Part shown: piece by piece, positions 1-6,777 of the stretch
How positions within the stretch are numbered: position 1 is the stretch's first letter
Layout: the number at the start of each line of letters is the position of its first letter
IMG/VR virus record: IMGVR_UViG_2526164595_000004
Reading direction: 5' to 3' (one strand)
Length of the DNA: 6,777 nt
From: a virus
Taxonomy: Duplodnaviria > Heunggongvirae > Uroviricota > Caudoviricetes
The notes under the pieces: generated by a model
Databases searched by the model: none
Seen by the model: only the letters and a program-made list of their open reading frames with translations
Told to the model about the DNA's origin: nothing
Position numbers and translations under genes: made by a program

Positions 1-28
1 AGTTCAGCTCGCCGTCGAAGACTTTCCC
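1..28 (-). CDS. T: 5' fragment of the T reading frame (gpGT fusion), reached by -1 frameshift from G; continues off-window
   Basis: The -1 frame after the GGGAAAG heptamer stays open to the window edge (GGG AAA GTC TTC GAC GGC GAG CTG AAC ...). The lambda G-T arrangement is established knowledge. Too short here to confirm by homology. Confidence 0.4.
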
Positions 29-435
29 GCAGAAAAATCATCATCAGTCAGCGTGTTATTTTTCGCCACTTCAGTAATATCAGTATCCGGACGAACAGCT
101 TCGATCATCCCGGACAGGCACAACACCACGTCTTCCGCCCGGGCAATGGCATCGGCAGGCCAGGTGGTGAGCACTTCCTGCTCTATCTTCATCACGGCCT
201 CATTCATTGACGGTGACTGCGTTTTCTGTGGATGGTTATGCCACAGGGACATCGCCACCAGAAACGCGCCGGTTCTGACGAGATCTTCCACGCTAACCTG
301 CAGGTTGCCGCAGGATTCTGCCTGTTCTGCACGCCGTTTCAGGAGGGCAAGATGCTCGATACGCTGCAGCGCAGACAATTCGGAAAGCGTGACAGACACA
401 CCGTTATATTCAAATTGTTCTGTTTTCAGAAACAT
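4..435 (-). CDS. G: Tail assembly chaperone gpG-like
   Basis: 143-aa ORF; MFLKTEQFEYNGVSVTLSELSALQRIEHLAL...GAFLVAMSLWHNHPQKTQ...NEAV..IEQEVLTTWP is near-collinear with lambda gpG (about 140 aa) as I recall it. GGAGG lies 7 nt upstream of the ATG (plus 442-446). Stop at 4-6. Confidence 0.9.
   Translation of the reverse strand: MFLKTEQFEYNGVSVTLSELSALQRIEHLALLKRRAEQAESCGNLQVSVEDLVRTGAFLVAMSLWHNHPQKTQSPSMNEAVMKIEQEVLTTWPADAIARAEDVVLCLSGMIEAVRPDTDITEVAKNNTLTDDDFSAGKSSTAS
22..28 (-). promoter_or_regulatory. Programmed -1 ribosomal frameshift slippery heptamer G GGA AAG (G to GT recoding site)
   Basis: Minus strand reads gcG GGA AAG tct in the G zero frame, 6 codons before the G stop. Heptamer and position match the known lambda G/GT slip site. 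Confidence 0.7.
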
Positions 436-448
436 GTATTACCTCCGT

Positions 449-1201
449 TTACCCTGCAGCGCCCGCTTCAGTAACGGTGACTTCAGCCACTGCGGCGAAC
501 TGACCATTTCCGCTCACCACAGGGATCTGCACCTTACCTGTCGCCACGCCGTTTACCGTAATTGTCATATCTTTCACACTAATGGTGGCTTTCGACGGAT
601 CGGCGGAAACCGCTCTGAACGTCTTGTCGGTTGCACTTTCCGGCTCAAAAGAAACCGTCAGGGTGGTTGTTTTCCCTTTTGCCACCGTACCGGATGTCGG
701 CGTCACCTTAATCGCACTGACCGGCGTAATTTTGCTGCGTTCTTCCGCTACAGAAGGTTTACCCACGTTAGTGACTTTCACCGTGCGGGTGATCACTTCT
801 TTCGCCGTCACGGCCTTACCGATACTGCTGACCCAGCCACGAAACACATCCACCGTGCCATTCGGAAAACGGATTTTATAGGCCCGGACATCGCCGCTTT
901 CAAACCAGCCTATAAGCCCTTTCTGGCCTTCCTCTCCCGGTTTCCAGGCCAGCGTAAAACTGGTATCACCTGCAGATTTCTGCCCCTGCCCGGTCGCGGT
1001 CCAGTCTGCGTCTTCATCATCCAGGTAGTTATCATCGTAGGATTCTGCCGTCATCTCGCCCGGCGTCAGATCCTTCACCTTAGCCAGTCGCTGCCAGTCA
1101 GCGTCTGACAACGGGTTTGCATAAGCATCACCCTTGCCGTTGTAAACCCACAGAGTGGTACCGGCACCTTTTACTGGCTCCAGGGGATTTGGTGTTGCCA
1201 T
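449..1201 (-). CDS. V: Major tail tube protein gpV-like with C-terminal Ig-like (Big_2-type) domain
   Basis: 250-aa ORF; [12 protein letters not shown]...[55 protein letters not shown]...[41 protein letters not shown] matches lambda gpV closely. C-terminal ...[38 protein letters not shown] resembles the Ig-like domain. SD GAGGA overlaps the U stop; start 8 nt after it. Confidence 0.93.
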
Positions 1202-1208
1202 ATCGTCC

Positions 1209-1604
1209 TCACATCTCGTATGTAATGGAATAAGTCAGATCCGCAGAGCTCCATAACGCCATATCGTCATCACGACGATACTCATAGCCCTGCGTAACCA
1301 TCGTGGTAATCAGTCCTGCCAGTGCCGGGATCGCAGTCATCGCCGGATAAATCCGGCTTTCCATCCACTGATCAAGCTCTGAATCCGGTACCTGTGCCGG
1401 TAAAAACACCTCAATATGCAGTGTGGCCCGCCAGGTATCTGCATCCAGCTCTTCACCGGTATACTCTGCATCCGTCAGATAAACCGCGATCGCAGGAAAA
1501 TCCTCTTCGTCAAAAACAACGGGGCGACCATCAAACAGCGTCGCCCCGTGTTCATGCTGCTCGAGTGCATCCAGCACTGCGGCACGAATATCAGTGTGTT
1601 TCAT
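1209..1604 (-). CDS. U: Tail terminator protein gpU-like
   Basis: 131-aa ORF; [58 protein letters not shown]...[26 protein letters not shown]...[20 protein letters not shown] is collinear with lambda gpU (131 aa). Start overlaps the Z stop as ATGA (plus 1601-1604). Confidence 0.93.
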
Positions 1605-2176
1605 CGTTTTATCGCAATCCTCAGTTGTTGTTTCAGCGCGGATGCCAGTTCTCCGGGCAGGCGTTCACGCCGGATACGGTCAACATTCTCATCAAATGCC
1701 TGTTTCAGTGGGGCCGCCATCGGGATTTTCACCACCTGAATGGGAAGGCGATTACGCTTTTTCCTTCCCTTGTCGTCATTGCCCTCCTCATATCTGGCCT
1801 GGGGAAGACGTTGCATAACATGCCAGCGCCCATTATTTAATCGCTGGATAAATGCCCGCTGATAACGATGCTGACCGGCTTTGAGTATGCTGTCCGGACG
1901 ACGCCCCAGCATTCTGATCCCCAGCTTAATCACAGGGAGATCACCGCGGTTAACGATAATTCTGGCATTCGGATTTCTGACCGTCGCCCGTTTCAGTCTG
2001 GACCGTTCCTTAACCAGTTTCCGGCGAACCTTGGTCTCCCGGGCAACCTGTGATGAAGACTGATTAATCGCCGTTGTGGCCACGCGGTTAATGGTCATTG
2101 CAGAAGCAGCCGGAATGGCGTTTTTACGAACCCGGCTCAGATTGTCAATCGCCTGATCAAGCCCTTTTATCGCCAT
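1601..2176 (-). CDS. Z: Tail completion protein gpZ-like
   Basis: 191-aa ORF; MAIKGL.QA..NLSR...A.P.A.AM.INRVA..AI.QS.SQVARETKVRRKLVKER.RLKRATV.NP.ARI.VNRGDLPVIKLG...NGRWHVMQR...VVKIPMA.PL..AF..N..RIRRERLP.EL..AL..QLR..IKR matches lambda gpZ. ATGA overlap with U indicates translational coupling. Confidence 0.9.
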   Translation of the reverse strand: MAIKGLDQAIDNLSRVRKNAIPAASAMTINRVATTAINQSSSQVARETKVRRKLVKERSRLKRATVRNPNARIIVNRGDLPVIKLGIRMLGRRPDSILKAGQHRYQRAFIQRLNNGRWHVMQRLPQARYEEGNDDKGRKKRNRLPIQVVKIPMAAPLKQAFDENVDRIRRERLPGELASALKQQLRIAIKR

Positions 2177-2190
2177 AATTCACCCTGCGT

Positions 2191-2544
2191 TTATCGTCGC
2201 CGGTTAACTGCGGGTGGTTGCCCACGGTTGAGCCAGAGATAACAGCTACCCCCGTCATCCGGAGAAACACGATCCACCCAGAATGTCTCACCATTAATGG
2301 TCAGCGTGTCACCACGCCGCACGGCACGAACCGTATCCGTCCGCACAAATAATGACGGGCTGCTTCCTTCAATACGGACCCCGCTACCGGCAAACCCCAG
2401 CGACTCCGGATCGTCAAAAACCCCCTGAACTTCGCTGCCACACTGTGCCCCCGAGGTGAACTGCGCACAGAGCCCCATCACTTCAACGATCGTACTGTCC
2501 ACCCCGGCGAGGGCAGCATCAAAGGCATTCTGAAAATCACGCAT
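2191..2544 (-). CDS. FII: Head-tail joining protein gpFII-like
   Basis: 117-aa ORF; M.DF.N.FDAA.A..D.TI...MG......SG.Q.G....GVFDDPE...AG.GVR.EGSSPSLFVRTD.VR..RRGDTLTI....FWVDRVSPDDGGSC.LWL.RG.PPAVNRRR is a strong match to lambda gpFII (117 aa). Confidence 0.92.
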   Translation of the reverse strand: MRDFQNAFDAALAGVDSTIVEVMGLCAQFTSGAQCGSEVQGVFDDPESLGFAGSGVRIEGSSPSLFVRTDTVRAVRRGDTLTINGETFWVDRVSPDDGGSCYLWLNRGQPPAVNRRR

Positions 2545-2565
2545 ATTCAGCCGTTCCGTCCTGTA

Positions 2566-2904
2566 TCATGGCCGTTGCCAGTGATGATGGCACCAGAACA
2601 CTCTGCCAGCATCAACATGCTCAACAGGCTCACCTGTTTCATCGTCAACACCGCACAGGTAAAAACACTTCAGAAGCCTGATACGTTCCAGAATACCAAC
2701 GTCATCCTCACCGGTGTGCCTGCATGCCTGCTCATGAACGGTATCATCAACATCTGCGATTTCATTTTCCGAGGCGCAAACCTCCTCTTCCCACTCTGCC
2801 ACACGCTGTGCGATATCCGCAGCACTCCCCGACATATCCGCCTCGCGCCCCAGCAGACCAGCCAGTTCACAAAGACGTTTCAGATTTTCTTCTTTTGTTG
2901 CCAT
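2566..2904 (-). CDS. FI: DNA-packaging / head assembly protein gpFI-like
   Basis: Start chosen at the internal ATG (2904-2902) preceded by AGGAGG (plus 2910-2915) with a 5-nt spacer, giving 112 aa. N-terminal half MATKEENLKRLCELAGLLGREADMSGSAADIAQRVAEWEEEV parallels lambda FI MTKDELIARLRSLGEQLNRDVSLTGTKEELALRVAELKEEL. The C-terminal part is more divergent and ends in an odd Cys/His/Trp-rich tail, so the 3' end is uncertain. Confidence 0.7.
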   Translation of the reverse strand: MATKEENLKRLCELAGLLGREADMSGSAADIAQRVAEWEEEVCASENEIADVDDTVHEQACRHTGEDDVGILERIRLLKCFYLCGVDDETGEPVEHVDAGRVFWCHHHWQRP

Positions 2905-2918
2905 ATCAGCCTCCTGTG

Positions 2919-2947
2919 AAAAAAGACACGGGGGCATTTCGCCCTCG
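2919..2947 (-). terminator. Terminator-like GC hairpin plus T6 run between E stop and FI ribosome-binding site
   Basis: Minus strand: CGAGGGC-gaaat-GCCCCCG (7-bp stem, one A.C mismatch) followed by tgtc TTTTTT, immediately upstream of the FI AGGAGG. Seen directly in sequence; function not demonstrated. Confidence 0.3.
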
Positions 2948-2955
2948 CTCACGGA

Positions 2956-3985
2956 TTATTTCACCTGTACCACCACAAACTCATCCGGATCCGGCAGCAC
3001 CATCAGCGGTGCGGACTGCGTCATGGTGAATTCACAGGACGGATCGCCCACAGTCAGCCAGTGTTTCGGGTAACGGGAAGAAGCCACCACACCTTCAGAC
3101 AACGCCTGTGCATCCTTAATGGCTCCATAGCAACGAATCCCCTCTGCTGCCGTATTCCCCAGCACCAGCGTGCCCTCCGGCAGATAACGTTTTTCGGTAC
3201 CGTCCTCTGCCACATAAGACGTTTTCGCTACCACAATGGCCAGATCACCGTAATACCCTTTGAAGGATACCACTGCGCCCAGGTCTTTCACTGCCGTTTC
3301 GAGTTGTGAATTTGAGCCGCGACGGGTATCCAGTTTTTCGCGGAACAGCTTAAAGCCATTCAGCAGACGCCAGACCGTACCGTCCATAATGGCAATATTC
3401 ACAAGACCGCTGGCCTGATCGCAGTAAAGGTCAATATCATGCGTCGGATCGAACGTGTCACGATCCTGCTCAGACCACTCCTTACCGCTACCTTGTATGA
3501 TGTTATTCTCCGTCAGAGCGGCCGAAATCCACCTCGACCGTGTCAAACTGTTCCCCTTCCATGGTGTATTTGCCATACAGCACGGCATTCACCGCCTGCA
3601 TTTCTTCCACCTGGACAATAGCGTGCTCTTCCTGTTTGAGGTTATCGGTGATGATACGCAGACGACGGTAGGCCGGGTCGTTCAGCTGAGCCGGATCTTC
3701 ACCGGGAAGGCGCTCAACCGCCTGCTGGTAATTAAATTCGTGTTTCGGCTTGACGTAGCCCGGACGCAACACGCGGGTTTCACCACCACGATGGCGCAGC
3801 ACTTTTCCTTCAACGATCGGGGAGACATAGGCCGCCACCGGCGTTTTTCCGGTAATTTTGTCCAGCATCACCTCTTCGGTGTGGAAATTCACCGTACGGC
3901 GGAAAAACAGCTCCAGAAATAGCGCACGGAATTTAACTTTTTGTTCGGTATAACCGAGTAACTGGCGGGTCGTAAACAATCCCAT
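2956..3985 (-). pseudogene. E: Major capsid protein gpE-like, reading frame interrupted by an apparent +1 insertion near 3510-3511 (pseudogene or sequencing indel)
   Basis: The N-terminal 160-aa ORF (3503..3985) and C-terminal 210-aa ORF (2956..3588) are in different frames but together are collinear with lambda gpE (341 aa). Examples: YVSPIV.G.V.R.RGG...PGYVKPKHE, AIVQVEEMQAV.AVL.GKYTM.GE.FD.VEVD.GRS in the first; ENNI.Q.G..EWS..D...DPT.DI, KLDTRRGSNS.LETAVKDLG, EFTM.QSAPLM in the second. Minus strand reads tct gac G gag aat aac at the junction. SD AAAGGAA upstream of ATG 3985. Confidence 0.85.
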
Positions 3986-4013
3986 AAATCAGTTCCTTTC
4001 ATTCAGAAATCAG

Positions 4014-4035
4014 TCAGGCCAACGCGGTGGCCTGA
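4014..4035 (-). other. Intergenic RNA hairpin between D stop and E start
   Basis: Perfect 7-bp inverted repeat TCAGGCC / GGCCTGA with an 8-nt loop, inside the 57-nt D-E spacer. No adjacent U-run, so it is not a canonical intrinsic terminator. Confidence 0.3.
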
Positions 4036-4042
4036 TAACGTG

Positions 4043-4390
4043 TTACGGCAGCGCCGCGTGACTCAGGGCACTGCCGGCAAAGGCATTGGCCTTTTTGTGT
4101 TCATCCACACTGTCAGGCCAGCGGATTGCCTCCGTCGCAAAGGTCCCCGACTTGTAATAGGTCAGCACCGTCTCTGTGCCTTCAAGCGGCAGTACCAGTA
4201 TGCCAACCGCACTACCGGCTTTCTGTCCATCCCAGACCACCAGTTTCCCGGTGGCTTCATCCAGCATCAGGGGCGTCAGAGCCGGTGTTGCAGAAGAAAT
4301 CCCGCTGCTGCCTGTGGCGGTATGAGCCGGATCATTACCAGCAAAAATACGTACTTCCGCACGCTGTTCAGTGATGGTTTTCGTCACCAT
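4043..4390 (-). CDS. D: Head decoration protein gpD-like
   Basis: 115-aa ORF; ...GNDPAHTATGSSGISSATPALTPLMLDEATGKLVVWDGQKAGSAVGIL...TYYKSGTF..E...WP.....KK.AFAGSA matches lambda gpD (110 aa; SDPAHTATAPGG...MTPLMLDTSSRKLVAWDG...AVGIL...FYKSGTF). GAGG 10 nt upstream of the ATG. Confidence 0.9.
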   Translation of the reverse strand: MVTKTITEQRAEVRIFAGNDPAHTATGSSGISSATPALTPLMLDEATGKLVVWDGQKAGSAVGILVLPLEGTETVLTYYKSGTFATEAIRWPDSVDEHKKANAFAGSALSHAALP

Positions 4391-4426
4391 TTTGTTAAAA
4401 CCTCATATTGATGGTCAGCACTGACT

Positions 4427-5029
4427 TCATGGCATGGCCATGAGCATTTTCACGTCCGCATCACCGTCTTCTGACGTCTGTGACACGCCACCCCGCACCG
4501 CTGCCGGTGAATGATTCGCCATGAAATGTTCAAACAGGGCGGTTGTGGATGCAGAGACCGGTTCGGCCTTACCTGATCCCGCAGCCAGCACAGCCCGGGC
4601 GTTCTCCACGGTCATTCCCGGGCAGGCCGCCAGTTTTTCAGCCTGCGCTTCTGCCCCTTTTGCCTCATCCAGGGCCATGATCTGATCACGAAGTGAGGGC
4701 CCGGCATCCGCCAGTGGTGCAGCCGCCAGGATCGGGCGGGCTTTTTCCACCGTCATCTCCGGCATCGCCGCCAGCGTTGCTGCCAGTTGTTCACGACCGT
4801 TCGCTTCTTCACACGCCATAATGCGATCGGCTTCACTCTGCGCGGATGCCACCGGCTGCTGCGGTGCCGCCGCGGCCAGAATCGCCCGGGCCTGTTCAAC
4901 GCTCATGCCCTGTTGCCCTGCCAGCATCGTGGCAAGCTGTTCACGTCCTTTCGCTTCCTGGCATGTCAGGATCCCCATCACTCGCTGGTTCTCCTGCACG
5001 GCGGCTTCCGTTGCAGTTAATTGCGGCAT
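4427..5029 (-). CDS. Nu3: Nested in-frame scaffolding protein (Nu3-like) from an internal start within the 3' part of C
   Basis: Internal ATG (5029-5027) preceded by GAGGAGG (plus 5034-5040). Product of about 200 aa begins MPQLTATEAAVQENQRVMGILTCQEAKGREQ..., paralleling lambda Nu3 (...ENSRIMGILNCEEAHGREEQARVLAETPGMTVKTARRILAAAP). The nested C/Nu3 arrangement is established for lambda; the exact start here is inferred. Confidence 0.55.
   Translation of the reverse strand: MPQLTATEAAVQENQRVMGILTCQEAKGREQLATMLAGQQGMSVEQARAILAAAAPQQPVASAQSEADRIMACEEANGREQLAATLAAMPEMTVEKARPILAAAPLADAGPSLRDQIMALDEAKGAEAQAEKLAACPGMTVENARAVLAAGSGKAEPVSASTTALFEHFMANHSPAAVRGGVSQTSEDGDADVKMLMAMP
4577..4984 (-). repeat. 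Three tandem, diverged copies (about 140-160 nt, 36-41 aa) of the scaffold motif inside C/Nu3
   Basis: Protein repeats RVMGILTCQEAKGREQLATMLAGQQGMSVEQARAILAAAAP, RIMACEEANGREQLAATLAAMPEMTVEKARPILAAAP and QIMALDEAKGAEAQAEKLAACPGMTVENARAVLAAG. Matching DNA similarity is visible, e.g. ctgttcacgtcctttcgcttcctggcatgtcag versus ttgttcacgaccgttcgcttcttcacacgccat. Confidence 0.7.
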
Positions 5030-5920
5030 AGTGCCTCCTCTGACATTACTGTTCAGCGCCGTGGCCATCACACTGATGGCATCCGACGCATTGATTAATT
5101 CATCCGCCAGCCCGGCCTCAATGCCGGACTGACCTTCAAAAACGGCGGCCTCTGTTCCCGTGACTGCATCAACAGACAGACCGGTATACATCGCCACTTT
5201 TTCGGCAAACATCCGGTGCGCCGCATCAATCCGCTGCTGCATATCCTGGCGAACCTCTGCCGGCAACGCTTCAAACTGATTGCCATCCACCTTGTGCGCC
5301 CCGGCATAAATCAGCGTGATATCCACACCGGCCTGCGCCAGATGACCGGCATAGCTGACATGGCTCATCATCACGCCAATGGAGCCGATACGGGATGTCT
5401 GGGTAACCAGCCGTCGGGAGCAGGCCGACGCCAGCAGCATGGCTGCAGAACAGGCCGTGTCATTGCACAGTGCCCAGACCGGCTTCTGCTGCCGGAGGCG
5501 GTAAATCATGTCAGCGCAGTCAAACGCGCCGGCGGCCTGCCCGCCGGACTGTCAATGTCCAGCAGTATGCCCCGCACCTGGCTATCTGCCATTGCCTGCT
5601 GAAGACAGGCGACAATGCCGTCATAGCCAGTCATTCCGGAAAATGGCCGCATCCCCCCCAGCCGGTGCACCAGCGTGCCGGTCACCGGCAGTACCGCAAT
5701 ACCGTTCACCACCCGGTAAACACGGGCCGGTCGTTTACCTCCGGCCATGTACTCGTCCGTTTCAGCCAGCATTCCGGGAGCATCAAGCTGTACCTGCTGT
5801 TGCGGTACCGAAAGACTTGCTGCCCCCATCTCGCGCCCCAGCGCGCAAAAGAAAACCCGCGCATAGGCGGGCTCCAGAAGCAGCGGTTCATTGAATGCTG
5901 CTGCAATAATGTGTGAAAGA

Positions 5921-6777
5921 TTACGTCTCACGTGGTGTTGTCTCCTCTTCCGGCCTGCGACTCTCCGCTATCTGCTGCTGATACGCCTGCGCTATCCACA
6001 CCGGACGTGAGAGTCCGGCTTTTTCCCGCTCTGCAGATTCCCTGACCTGCTGGCGGAAAATGTCCTGATAATCCTCGCCCATCAGCGCCAGCTCTTTCTC
6101 ATACGTGCTCAGTCCGGCCTCAATGCGCATCACTGATTCCTGAACCTCCTTGAGCCCGTCAATGGCCATTCTTCCGGCTCCAATCCACTCAGCCCGTGAC
6201 CAGGCTGATCGCGCCTGATAAAAATCAAACCGTGCCCGTGGCGGACGAATAATCCCCCGAAGAAGTGCCTCTTCCAGCCAGCAGGAAAACATCTGCGTGG
6301 CCAGCCGGGACGCAATAAATTTTCGCCGCCCCATAAAATAGCGCCACGACTCATTGGCGGATGCGCGGGCACTTGAGTAACTGACCTTCGAGTAATCACG
6401 GGACAACTGTTCGTAGGAAACGCCAAGACCGGCGGCGATATACCGCAGCAGCGCCTGTTCAAGCGCCGAAAATCCATTGTCTGAATCCTGCGCGGTCTGA
6501 AGTTTCAGATCATCACCGGGGAAAAGGTGCGGAATTTTGACACCGCCCAGCGTCACGCTATTCGTGTCATACCAGGTGGAGAACTTATCCAGAATATTAA
6601 TAAGCGGATTATCCTTCTGCCCTCGCGGCGCACCGGCGATATATTCAAAGGACCTCTTCGGTATCAAGGTCACTTTCTAATCGTCGCTGCATACATCGCC
6701 TTCTACTATGGCCGACTGAAGCTGTGTTGCCTGCAGGGAATCCAGCATCTTCAGCCGTTCCATAACGCTGTAAAACT
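5921..6777 (-). pseudogene. B: Portal protein gpB-like, 3' portion (5' end off-window); frame broken by three clustered +1 indels and an in-frame TAG at 6677-6679
   Basis: Same-frame translation upstream of the TAG (FYSVMERLKMLDSLQATQLQSAIV) and the 250-aa ORF downstream (..GG.K.PHL.PGD.L.LQTAQD.DNG.S..EQ.LLRYIAAGLGVSYEQLSR.Y...SYS.ARASANESW.YFMGRRKF.ASR...QMF.CWLEEA...AGRMAIDGLKEVQE.VM.IEAGLSTYEKE) match lambda gpB. Between them the conserved KAMYAATI and ESDLDTEEV segments are only readable in the other two frames. Confidence 0.85.

What the first reader, a model, noticed from the sequence alone, without database searches (positions are those of the whole stretch)
1..6777. Head genes are disrupted while tail genes are intact: decaying prophage, possible tail-module retention, or localized sequence error
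All five frame-disrupting indels fall in three head genes (B, C, E), within 3510-6703. D, FI and FII, which lie in the same half, and the tail genes Z, U, V, G (4-2176) have clean ORFs, conserved translational coupling and the GT slip site. This asymmetry could mean a cryptic prophage losing capsid function while keeping tail genes, as in lambda-like F-type tailocins. It could also be uneven sequence quality. The window is too short to decide, because the tape measure, tip and fibre genes lie beyond position 1.
Basis: inference. Interest (0 to 1): 0.45.

Follow-up and report, generated by a model that had tools for sequence, protein, structure and literature searches.

The report
Chimeric draft contig, not decaying prophage
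The broken head genes are assembly and sequencing artefacts: the window is one short draft-genome contig in which reads from two nearly identical, fully intact lambda-like prophages of the same E. coli strain were merged into a single consensus.

Summary
None is biological. The window is the whole 6,777-bp contig AIHO01000041.1 of the E. coli DEC15A (O111:H21) draft. The finished genome of that strain (NZ_CP077477.1, 'O111:H21 strain 15A') holds two complete lambdoid prophages, and every head and tail gene in both is annotated intact. The two copies differ at 310 aligned columns. The window equals copy 1 at 210, copy 2 at 98 and neither at 2, alternating in 42 runs, some only 2-3 bases apart. 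The E and FI frameshifts lie exactly on such switches. At E the window keeps both columns where one copy has an alignment gap. Where the copies agree, the window differs at only 7 columns: a six-error cluster 73-155 bases from the contig end (B) and a GGG-to-GG undercall (C). The tail genes look clean because the copies differ there at only 27 positions with no indels. The asymmetry is not significant (p about 0.1-0.2). This is not a real feature, and there is no evidence for a tailocin or prophage decay.

The parts
4..435 (-). G, tail assembly chaperone. Intact and identical in both prophage copies of the strain except for one site.
   Evidence: (PF06894)
22..28 (-). GGGAAAG G-T programmed -1 slippery heptamer. 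Gene T lies beyond the contig end.
   Evidence: sequence read directly; annotated joined G-T product in phage 21
449..1201 (-). V, major tail protein (250 aa). Intact. Carries copy-2 SNPs at 926 and 928 in a region otherwise without copy differences.
1209..1604 (-). U, tail terminator (131 aa), intact
1601..2176 (-). Z, tail completion protein (191 aa), intact. This exact protein is found on only 30 contigs, including the 5,207,197-bp 15A chromosome.
2191..2544 (-). FII, head-tail joining protein (117 aa). Intact, but a hybrid: the 5' end follows copy 2 and the rest follows copy 1.
2566..2904 (-). FI as it reads in the window (112 aa, unique to this contig). Its true end would be at 2537. The body follows the copy-1 allele and the 3' end the copy-2 allele.
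2599..2601 (-). FI junction: switch from copy 2 (2562-2599) to copy 1 (2601-2878) with one column dropped, giving a -1 frameshift.
2956..3985 (-). E, major capsid protein, split into 160-aa and 210-aa ORFs. Removing one base gives 342 aa.
3508..3524 (-). E junction: copy 1/2/1/2/1/2 alternation within 17 bases. The window keeps both alignment-gap columns of two equal-length alleles, giving a +1 at 3515.
4043..4390 (-). D, head decoration protein (115 aa), intact
4427..5931 (-). C/Nu3, S49 prohead protease and scaffold, split at 5546. Restoring one G gives 501 aa.
5546..5547 (-). GGG to GG homopolymer undercall at a place where both copies read CCGGGCGGGC
5921..6777 (-). B, portal (C-terminal 284 codons; the gene runs off the contig)
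6623..6704 (-). Error cluster 73-155 bases from the contig end: insertions at 6704 (A), 6678 (A) and 6652 (T), plus substitutions at 6656, 6624 and 6623. Both copies are identical and intact here.

Best explanation
The window is a collapsed-repeat, chimeric consensus contig from the 2012 draft assembly of E. coli DEC15A. The strain carries two near-identical phage-21/lambda-type prophages, one at the ompW-trp site and one at the yecD site, both with intact head and tail modules. The assembler merged reads from both copies into one contig and called the consensus column by column, so the sequence flips between the two copies. Where the copies are collinear and nearly identical (Z, U, V, G), this does no harm. 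Where they are locally very divergent (the middle of E and the 3' end of FI), the mixed pile-up was aligned with gaps, and the consensus gained a base in E and lost one in FI. The remaining four indels are ordinary read errors at places where both copies are identical: a low-quality cluster near the contig end in B and a G-run undercall in C. Shown: contig identity, the two intact copies, base-by-base attribution, and the position of the lesions. Inferred: the assembler's behaviour and the error chemistry.
For: (1) The window is the entire contig AIHO01000041.1 of GCA_000250495.2, E. coli DEC15A. (2) The truncated E, C and FI products occur on this one contig only, out of about 15 billion proteins. 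No complete E. coli genome among 5,426 matches the B or E lesion regions exactly; the best identities are 97.2% and 93-95%. (3) The finished genome of the same strain has two full prophages with B 530 aa, C 501 aa, E 342 aa and FI 122 or 127 aa, all annotated intact. Its best match to the window is only 98.5%, so the window sequence does not exist in it. (4) Three-way alignment: of the 310 columns where the copies differ, the window equals copy 1 at 210, copy 2 at 98 and neither at 2. There are 42 runs, and 14 of the switches span 5 bases or fewer. SNPs 5243T and 4781A, absent from all other references, are in copy 2, which ties 15A to DEC15A. (5) The E and FI indels both fall in these tight switch intervals, which cover 0.7% of the window; by chance p = 7e-4. 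(6) Where the copies agree, the window differs at only 7 columns: the B cluster and 5546. (7) Among these 7 private columns, 4 are indels and 3 are substitutions, an error-like ratio. (8) Copy 1 and copy 2 differ at 27 positions with no indels in window 1-2400, against 232 differences in 2401-3600, which explains the clean tail genes. (9) Reverting single bases restores full-length C, E, FI and an in-frame B.
Against: I could not see reads, quality values or coverage. The sequencing platform and assembler of the DEC15A draft could not be verified, because Hazen et al. 2012 is not in the held library. That 'strain 15A' is DEC15A rests on serotype, name, top rank among 5,426 genomes and shared private SNPs, not on a stated record link. 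The contig ends do not coincide with copy 1/copy 2 divergence points, so what set the contig boundaries is unexplained. Whether the draft also contains separate contigs for each copy is unknown (one search was uninformative).
Confidence: 0.95

Rival explanations
1. A real cryptic prophage in DEC15A is losing capsid function (B, C, E and FI pseudogenes) while its tail genes stay intact. It would be either simple decay or an early step towards a lambda-like F-type tailocin.
For: The six frame-disrupting lesions all lie in head genes, and Z, U, V and G are intact with the G-T slip site.
Against: The finished genome of the same strain has no such locus, and both matching prophages have intact head, terminase, tail and lysis genes. 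The window is a base-by-base alternation of those two copies, with switches 2-3 bases apart, which homologous recombination cannot produce. The lesions are private to one contig. Among private changes, indels outnumber substitutions. The asymmetry is not significant, p = 0.1-0.2.
Confidence: 0.02
2. A real third, recombinant prophage or a subpopulation variant existed in the 2012 DEC15A culture, formed by gene conversion between the two resident prophages, and is absent from the stock used for the finished genome. Some or all of the frameshifts would then be genuine.
For: Resident lambdoid prophages do recombine, and the window contains only copy-1 and copy-2 alleles. The finished record has four places with similarity to the window, and only two were examined.
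Against: Forty-two alternating tracts in 6.8 kb, including single-SNP tracts separated by 2-3 bases, are not a plausible conversion product. The junction at E keeps both gap columns of an alignment, which is a computational outcome and not a recombinational one. The best place in the finished genome is 98.5% identical, so none of the four places is this sequence.
Confidence: 0.02
3. A single real prophage copy was assembled correctly but with scattered platform errors only, meaning uniformly low quality and no chimerism.
For: The B cluster and the C homopolymer deletion are plain read-type errors at places where the copies are identical.
Against: All 89 mismatches to copy 1, except the three substitutions in the B error cluster and position 2560 at the FI junction, are the copy-2 state, including dense third-codon-position patches. 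Random errors would not reproduce another copy's alleles.
Confidence: 0.01

Closest known systems
Collapsed-repeat or chimeric consensus contigs in short-read or pyrosequencing draft assemblies of polylysogenic E. coli
   Same: A short stand-alone contig covers a segment present in two or more near-identical prophage copies. Every base is attributable to one copy or the other. The contig's sequence is absent from the finished genome. False frameshifts appear where the copies diverge locally.
   Different: Read depth, expected to be about twice the chromosomal median, could not be checked. The contig ends do not sit at copy 1/copy 2 divergence points.
Flow-sequencing (454-type) homopolymer and phasing indel errors that create false pseudogenes
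   Same: There is a GGG to GG undercall at 5546. In the B cluster each spurious base equals the base of a homopolymer lying just after the next base run (T[A]GAA, T[A]GAAA, GG[T]CCTTT, C[G]AGGG). Among private changes, indels outnumber substitutions.
   Different: The platform of this draft was not verified. The exact 26-base spacing of the three insertions is unexplained.
Phage 21 / lambda head-tail structural module (B, C/Nu3, D, E, FI, FII, Z, U, V, G-T)
   Same: Same gene order, Pfam families, overlapping start/stop coupling and G-T slip site. Identity is 89-95% to phage 21 head genes and 95-97% to ECOR-derived lambdoid phages.
   Different: Nothing biological. The apparent lesions are artefacts.
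F-type (lambda-like, flexible) tailocins
   Same: Only the superficial picture of intact tail genes next to broken head genes.
   Different: In the finished genome both loci carry complete terminase, portal, protease, capsid, decoration and head-completion genes as well as the tail genes. A tailocin locus lacks head and packaging genes.

Membership tests
Lambda / phage 21-type head-tail structural module | Gene order B-C/Nu3-D-E-FI-FII-Z-U-V-G with the matching protein families | tested here: met
   Pfam hits on the called genes: Phage_portal_2, Peptidase_S49, HDPD, Phage_cap_E, Packaging_FI, Phage_attach, Minor_tail_Z, Phage_tail_U, Phage_TTP_12/Big_2, Phage_TAC_2. Annotated relatives agree.
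Lambda / phage 21-type head-tail structural module | G-T -1 slippery heptamer GGGAAAG near the end of G | tested here: met
   Present at 28..22 on the minus strand.
Decaying (cryptic) prophage | Inactivating lesions that are a property of the genome, reproducible in an independent assembly of the same strain | tested here: not met
   Both prophage copies in the finished 15A genome have intact B, C, E and FI. The lesions are absent from both and from all other references.
Decaying (cryptic) prophage | Lesions accompanied by lineage-specific substitutions at a typical substitution-to-indel ratio | tested here: not met
   Where the copies agree, the private changes are 4 indels and 3 substitutions, and all 3 substitutions lie inside the B indel cluster.
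F-type tailocin | Tail module retained while capsid, portal and terminase genes are absent or dead at the locus | tested here: not met
   Terminase small and large subunits, W, portal, protease, D, E, FI and FII are all intact at both loci of the finished genome.
F-type tailocin | Production of tail-like bactericidal particles on induction | not testable with these tools
   This needs mitomycin C induction and electron microscopy or a killing assay.
Collapsed-repeat chimeric contig | The sequence is a whole short contig, and the finished genome holds two or more near-identical copies of the region | tested here: met
   The contig is 6,777 bp and equals the window. The copies are at 812-859 kb and 109-152 kb of NZ_CP077477.1.
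Collapsed-repeat chimeric contig | Every base is attributable to one copy or the other, with switching too fine for recombination | tested here: met
   308 of 310 informative columns are attributable. There are 42 runs, and 14 switches span 5 bases or fewer.
Collapsed-repeat chimeric contig | Read depth about twice the single-copy depth, with two read haplotypes in the pile-up | not testable with these tools
   No reads or coverage data are available.

The most novel reading that the evidence does not exclude
The 2012 DEC15A culture physically contained a hybrid prophage molecule, or a subpopulation carrying one, produced by extensive gene conversion between its two resident lambdoid prophages. 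Its head genes would be genuinely frameshifted, so the contig would record a transient recombinant that the finished genome's stock lacks.
Probability: 0.02. Interest if true: 0.3.

Novelty: not a real feature. Interest (0 to 1): 0.03.

Why it matters
It matters only as a caution. In draft assemblies of polylysogenic E. coli, short stand-alone prophage contigs can be column-wise blends of several copies. Their apparent pseudogenes, six here, were deposited as truncated proteins (EHX96990, EHX96993, EHX96988/WP_001440772) and can be misread as prophage decay or tailocin domestication. If a finished genome of the same strain exists, a simple two-parent attribution test settles such cases. Biologically, the strain carries two complete phage-21-type prophages, which is ordinary.

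Tried and rejected
(a) Looking for the lesions in other genomes. Megablast of the B, E and E-downstream segments against 5,426 complete E. coli genomes gave no exact match. That first suggested a rare allele, but the real cause was chimerism. (b) Two-parent analysis with copies from other strains (L001 + L004, L001 + L013) left 18-60 unexplained columns. Shared population polymorphism could have explained that result, so I did not treat it as decisive until the strain's own second copy was found. (c) Exact look-up of the 360-aa C fragment found nothing, because the gene caller had used another start. (d) Three attempts to read Hazen et al. 2012, and literature searches for the accession, strain and platform, gave nothing usable. 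(e) An exact-protein look-up of the intact head proteins of both copies, to see whether the DEC15A draft also holds them on other contigs, was uninformative because accession lists are truncated. (f) I tested whether contig ends mark copy 1/copy 2 divergence. They do not. (g) I did not use the homology, structure or RNA tools, because gene identities were already unambiguous and the question was one of sequence authenticity.
Full report
WHAT THE WINDOW IS. All long ORFs lie on the minus strand in lambda order: B (partial), C/Nu3, D, E, FI, FII, Z, U, V, G. Pfam hits on the called genes confirm the identities: Phage_portal_2, Peptidase_S49, HDPD, Phage_cap_E, Packaging_FI, Phage_attach, Minor_tail_Z, Phage_tail_U, Phage_TTP_12/Big_2 and Phage_TAC_2. 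The DNA is 95-97% identical to ECOR-derived lambdoid phages and 89-95% identical to phage 21. It is up to 98.5% identical to prophages in about 1,500 complete E. coli genomes. The G-T slippery heptamer GGGAAAG is at 28..22 on the minus strand, and the sequence stops 3 bases after the G stop codon.

CHECKING THE OBSERVATION. I aligned the window with an intact annotated prophage (L001, from E. coli O111:H21 strain 15A). This gave 89 mismatches and 10 indel columns. Translation shows their consequences. B reads ...SAIV|EGDVCSDD* and returns to frame after the third insertion. C stops after 141 aa. E stops after 160 aa. A 1-base deletion at 2600 shifts the last ~20 codons of FI. The product is 112 aa (...GRVFWCHHHWQRP*), whereas relatives have 122 or 127 aa. 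There are therefore six lesions, all in head genes. The asymmetry is still not significant. If six lesions fell at random over the window, all would miss the tail genes (4-2176) with p = 0.10. For four independent events p = 0.21.

WHERE THE WINDOW COMES FROM. An exact look-up of the truncated 160-aa E fragment returned a single contig, AIHO01000041.1 of GCA_000250495.2. It is 6,777 bp long, so it is the whole window. The source names it E. coli DEC15A. The truncated E, C and FI products each occur on this one contig only. The top hit among 5,426 complete E. coli genomes is 'O111:H21 strain 15A', NZ_CP077477.1.

SIGNS OF CHIMERISM. Mismatches to L001 are strongly clustered, at 2488-2600, 2882-2925, 3010-3647, 4022-4088 and 5144-5528. 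In E they fall on every third base. They are therefore genuine allelic differences and not noise. Against five and then six further references, the only window-private columns were the six frameshifting indels and five substitutions. Three of those substitutions lie inside the B indel cluster and one at the FI junction. No complete genome matches the E segment at better than 93-95%. The E and FI indels sit exactly where the window changes from one known allele to another.

THE DECISIVE TEST. Querying window 1-2598 alone revealed a second copy in the finished 15A genome, at 129-132 kb. It belongs to a complete lambdoid prophage at the yecD site with every structural gene annotated intact: Nu1, A, W, B 530 aa, C 501 aa, D, E 342 aa, FI 127 aa, FII, Z, U, V, G, T, H, M, L, K, I, J, lom, stf and tfa, plus lysis genes. 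Copy 1, at the ompW-trp site, is equally complete. I then aligned the window with both copies.
- The copies differ at 310 columns. The window equals copy 1 at 210, copy 2 at 98 and neither at 2 (2560 and 2600, both in the FI junction region). The 2560 column is explained by copy 1 under the alternative gap placement seen.
- The window alternates between the copies in 42 runs. Fourteen of the switches span 5 bases or fewer.
- Where the two copies agree, the window differs at only seven columns: 6704, 6678, 6656, 6652, 6624, 6623 and 5546.
- SNPs 5243T and 4781A were absent from every other reference but are present in copy 2. This shows that 15A and DEC15A are the same lineage.
- The best match of the finished genome to the whole window is only 98.5%, so the window's sequence does not exist in it.

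HOW EACH LESION AROSE.
- E (shown). Copy 1 reads CGATC-GACGAAGAAT and copy 2 reads CGCTCTGAAGGA-AAT. These are two equal-length alleles that an aligner offsets with compensating gaps. The window reads CGCTCTGACGGAGAAT. It keeps both gap columns and alternates 1/2/1/2/1/2 within 17 bases. That is the outcome of a column-wise consensus over a mixed pile-up, not of recombination.
- FI. The window is copy 2 up to 2599 and copy 1 from 2601, with one column lost at the join.
- Both indels fall in tight switch intervals that cover 0.7% of the window (p = 7e-4 by chance).
- B. Six errors lie within 82 bases, 73-155 bases from the contig end, where the two copies are identical. Each spurious base equals the base of a homopolymer lying just after the next base run: T[A]GAA, T[A]GAAA, GG[T]CCTTT and C[G]AGGG. 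I read this as flow-sequencing phasing error. That is an inference, because the platform could not be verified.
- C. A GGG to GG undercall, again where the copies agree.

WHY THE TAIL GENES LOOK CLEAN. In window 1-2400 the two copies differ at only 27 positions and by no indel. In 2401-3600 (FII 5' end, FI, E) they differ at 232 positions. Blending reads is harmless in the tail genes, and it does occur there: copy-2 SNPs appear at 926, 928, 1581, 1587 and 2033. In the divergent region the same blending produces gaps.

COMPARISON WITH KNOWN THINGS. The underlying biology is an ordinary phage-21/lambda-type structural module, present twice in the strain. The defining feature of a decaying prophage is lesions that reproduce in the genome. 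The defining feature of an F-type tailocin is a locus lacking functional head and packaging genes. Both were tested against the finished genome and were not met. The features of a collapsed-repeat chimeric contig that could be tested were met. Read depth could not be tested.

CAVEATS. No reads, qualities or coverage were available. The link between '15A' and DEC15A is inferred from serotype, name, rank and shared private SNPs. The contig ends do not coincide with copy 1/copy 2 divergence; the first differences are 71 bases beyond 6777 and 688 bases beyond position 1. The other two lambdoid places in the record may set those boundaries, but I did not check them. Whether the draft also has separate contigs for each copy is unknown.

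VERDICT. The indels are in the deposited sequence, but they are artefacts of assembly and sequencing. There is no evidence for prophage decay or tail-module retention. Novelty: not a real feature. Interest: about 0.03.

Noticed in passing
window 6652, 6678, 6704: The three B insertions are spaced exactly 26 bases apart. Each inserted base equals the base of a homopolymer lying just after the next base run. The regular spacing is unexplained and may be coincidence or a property of a single low-quality read.
   Followed up: partly
window 1 and 6777 (contig ends); L001 and L014 flanks: The contig ends do not coincide with divergence between the two 15A prophage copies; the first differences are 688 bases beyond position 1 and 71 bases beyond 6777. 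The finished record has four places similar to the window, so further lambdoid prophages may define the assembly-graph branch points.
   Followed up: partly
L001 14586-16215 (also L007 and L012, 1-1616): A divergently oriented pair, an sce7726-family protein and a 'beta family protein' (PF14350), sits between the lysis cassette and the small terminase gene of prophage copy 1. This is a typical moron position and could be a defence cassette.
   Followed up: no
L014 3620-4702 and 5528-5773; L001 9358-9607: Prophage copy 2 carries an ompC-like porin gene. Both prophages carry a tRNA Ile-Arg-Arg cluster downstream of the Q antiterminator region.
   Followed up: no
L008 2482-9204 (CP146681.1, a complete E. 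coli genome): The large terminase, portal and E ORFs are split in this related prophage. The locus shows 48 gap openings per 17.5 kb against L014. This looks like an indel-rich long-read assembly rather than real decay, but I did not examine it.
   Followed up: partly
window 2601-2800; L001 23871-24239 vs L014 19679-20062: FI is the sharpest mosaic boundary between the two resident prophages: 114 differences in 200 bases, and 122 aa against 127 aa. The flanking E and FII genes are similar, as expected for lambdoid module exchange.
   Followed up: partly
L013 7358-9958 (metagenome scaffold ERZ28638332): A natural phage combines the copy-2-type FI 3' end with copy-1-type tail genes and matches window 1-2601 at 99.8% without gaps. 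Such allele combinations therefore do occur in nature, which is why two-parent analysis with foreign references was not decisive on its own.
   Followed up: yes
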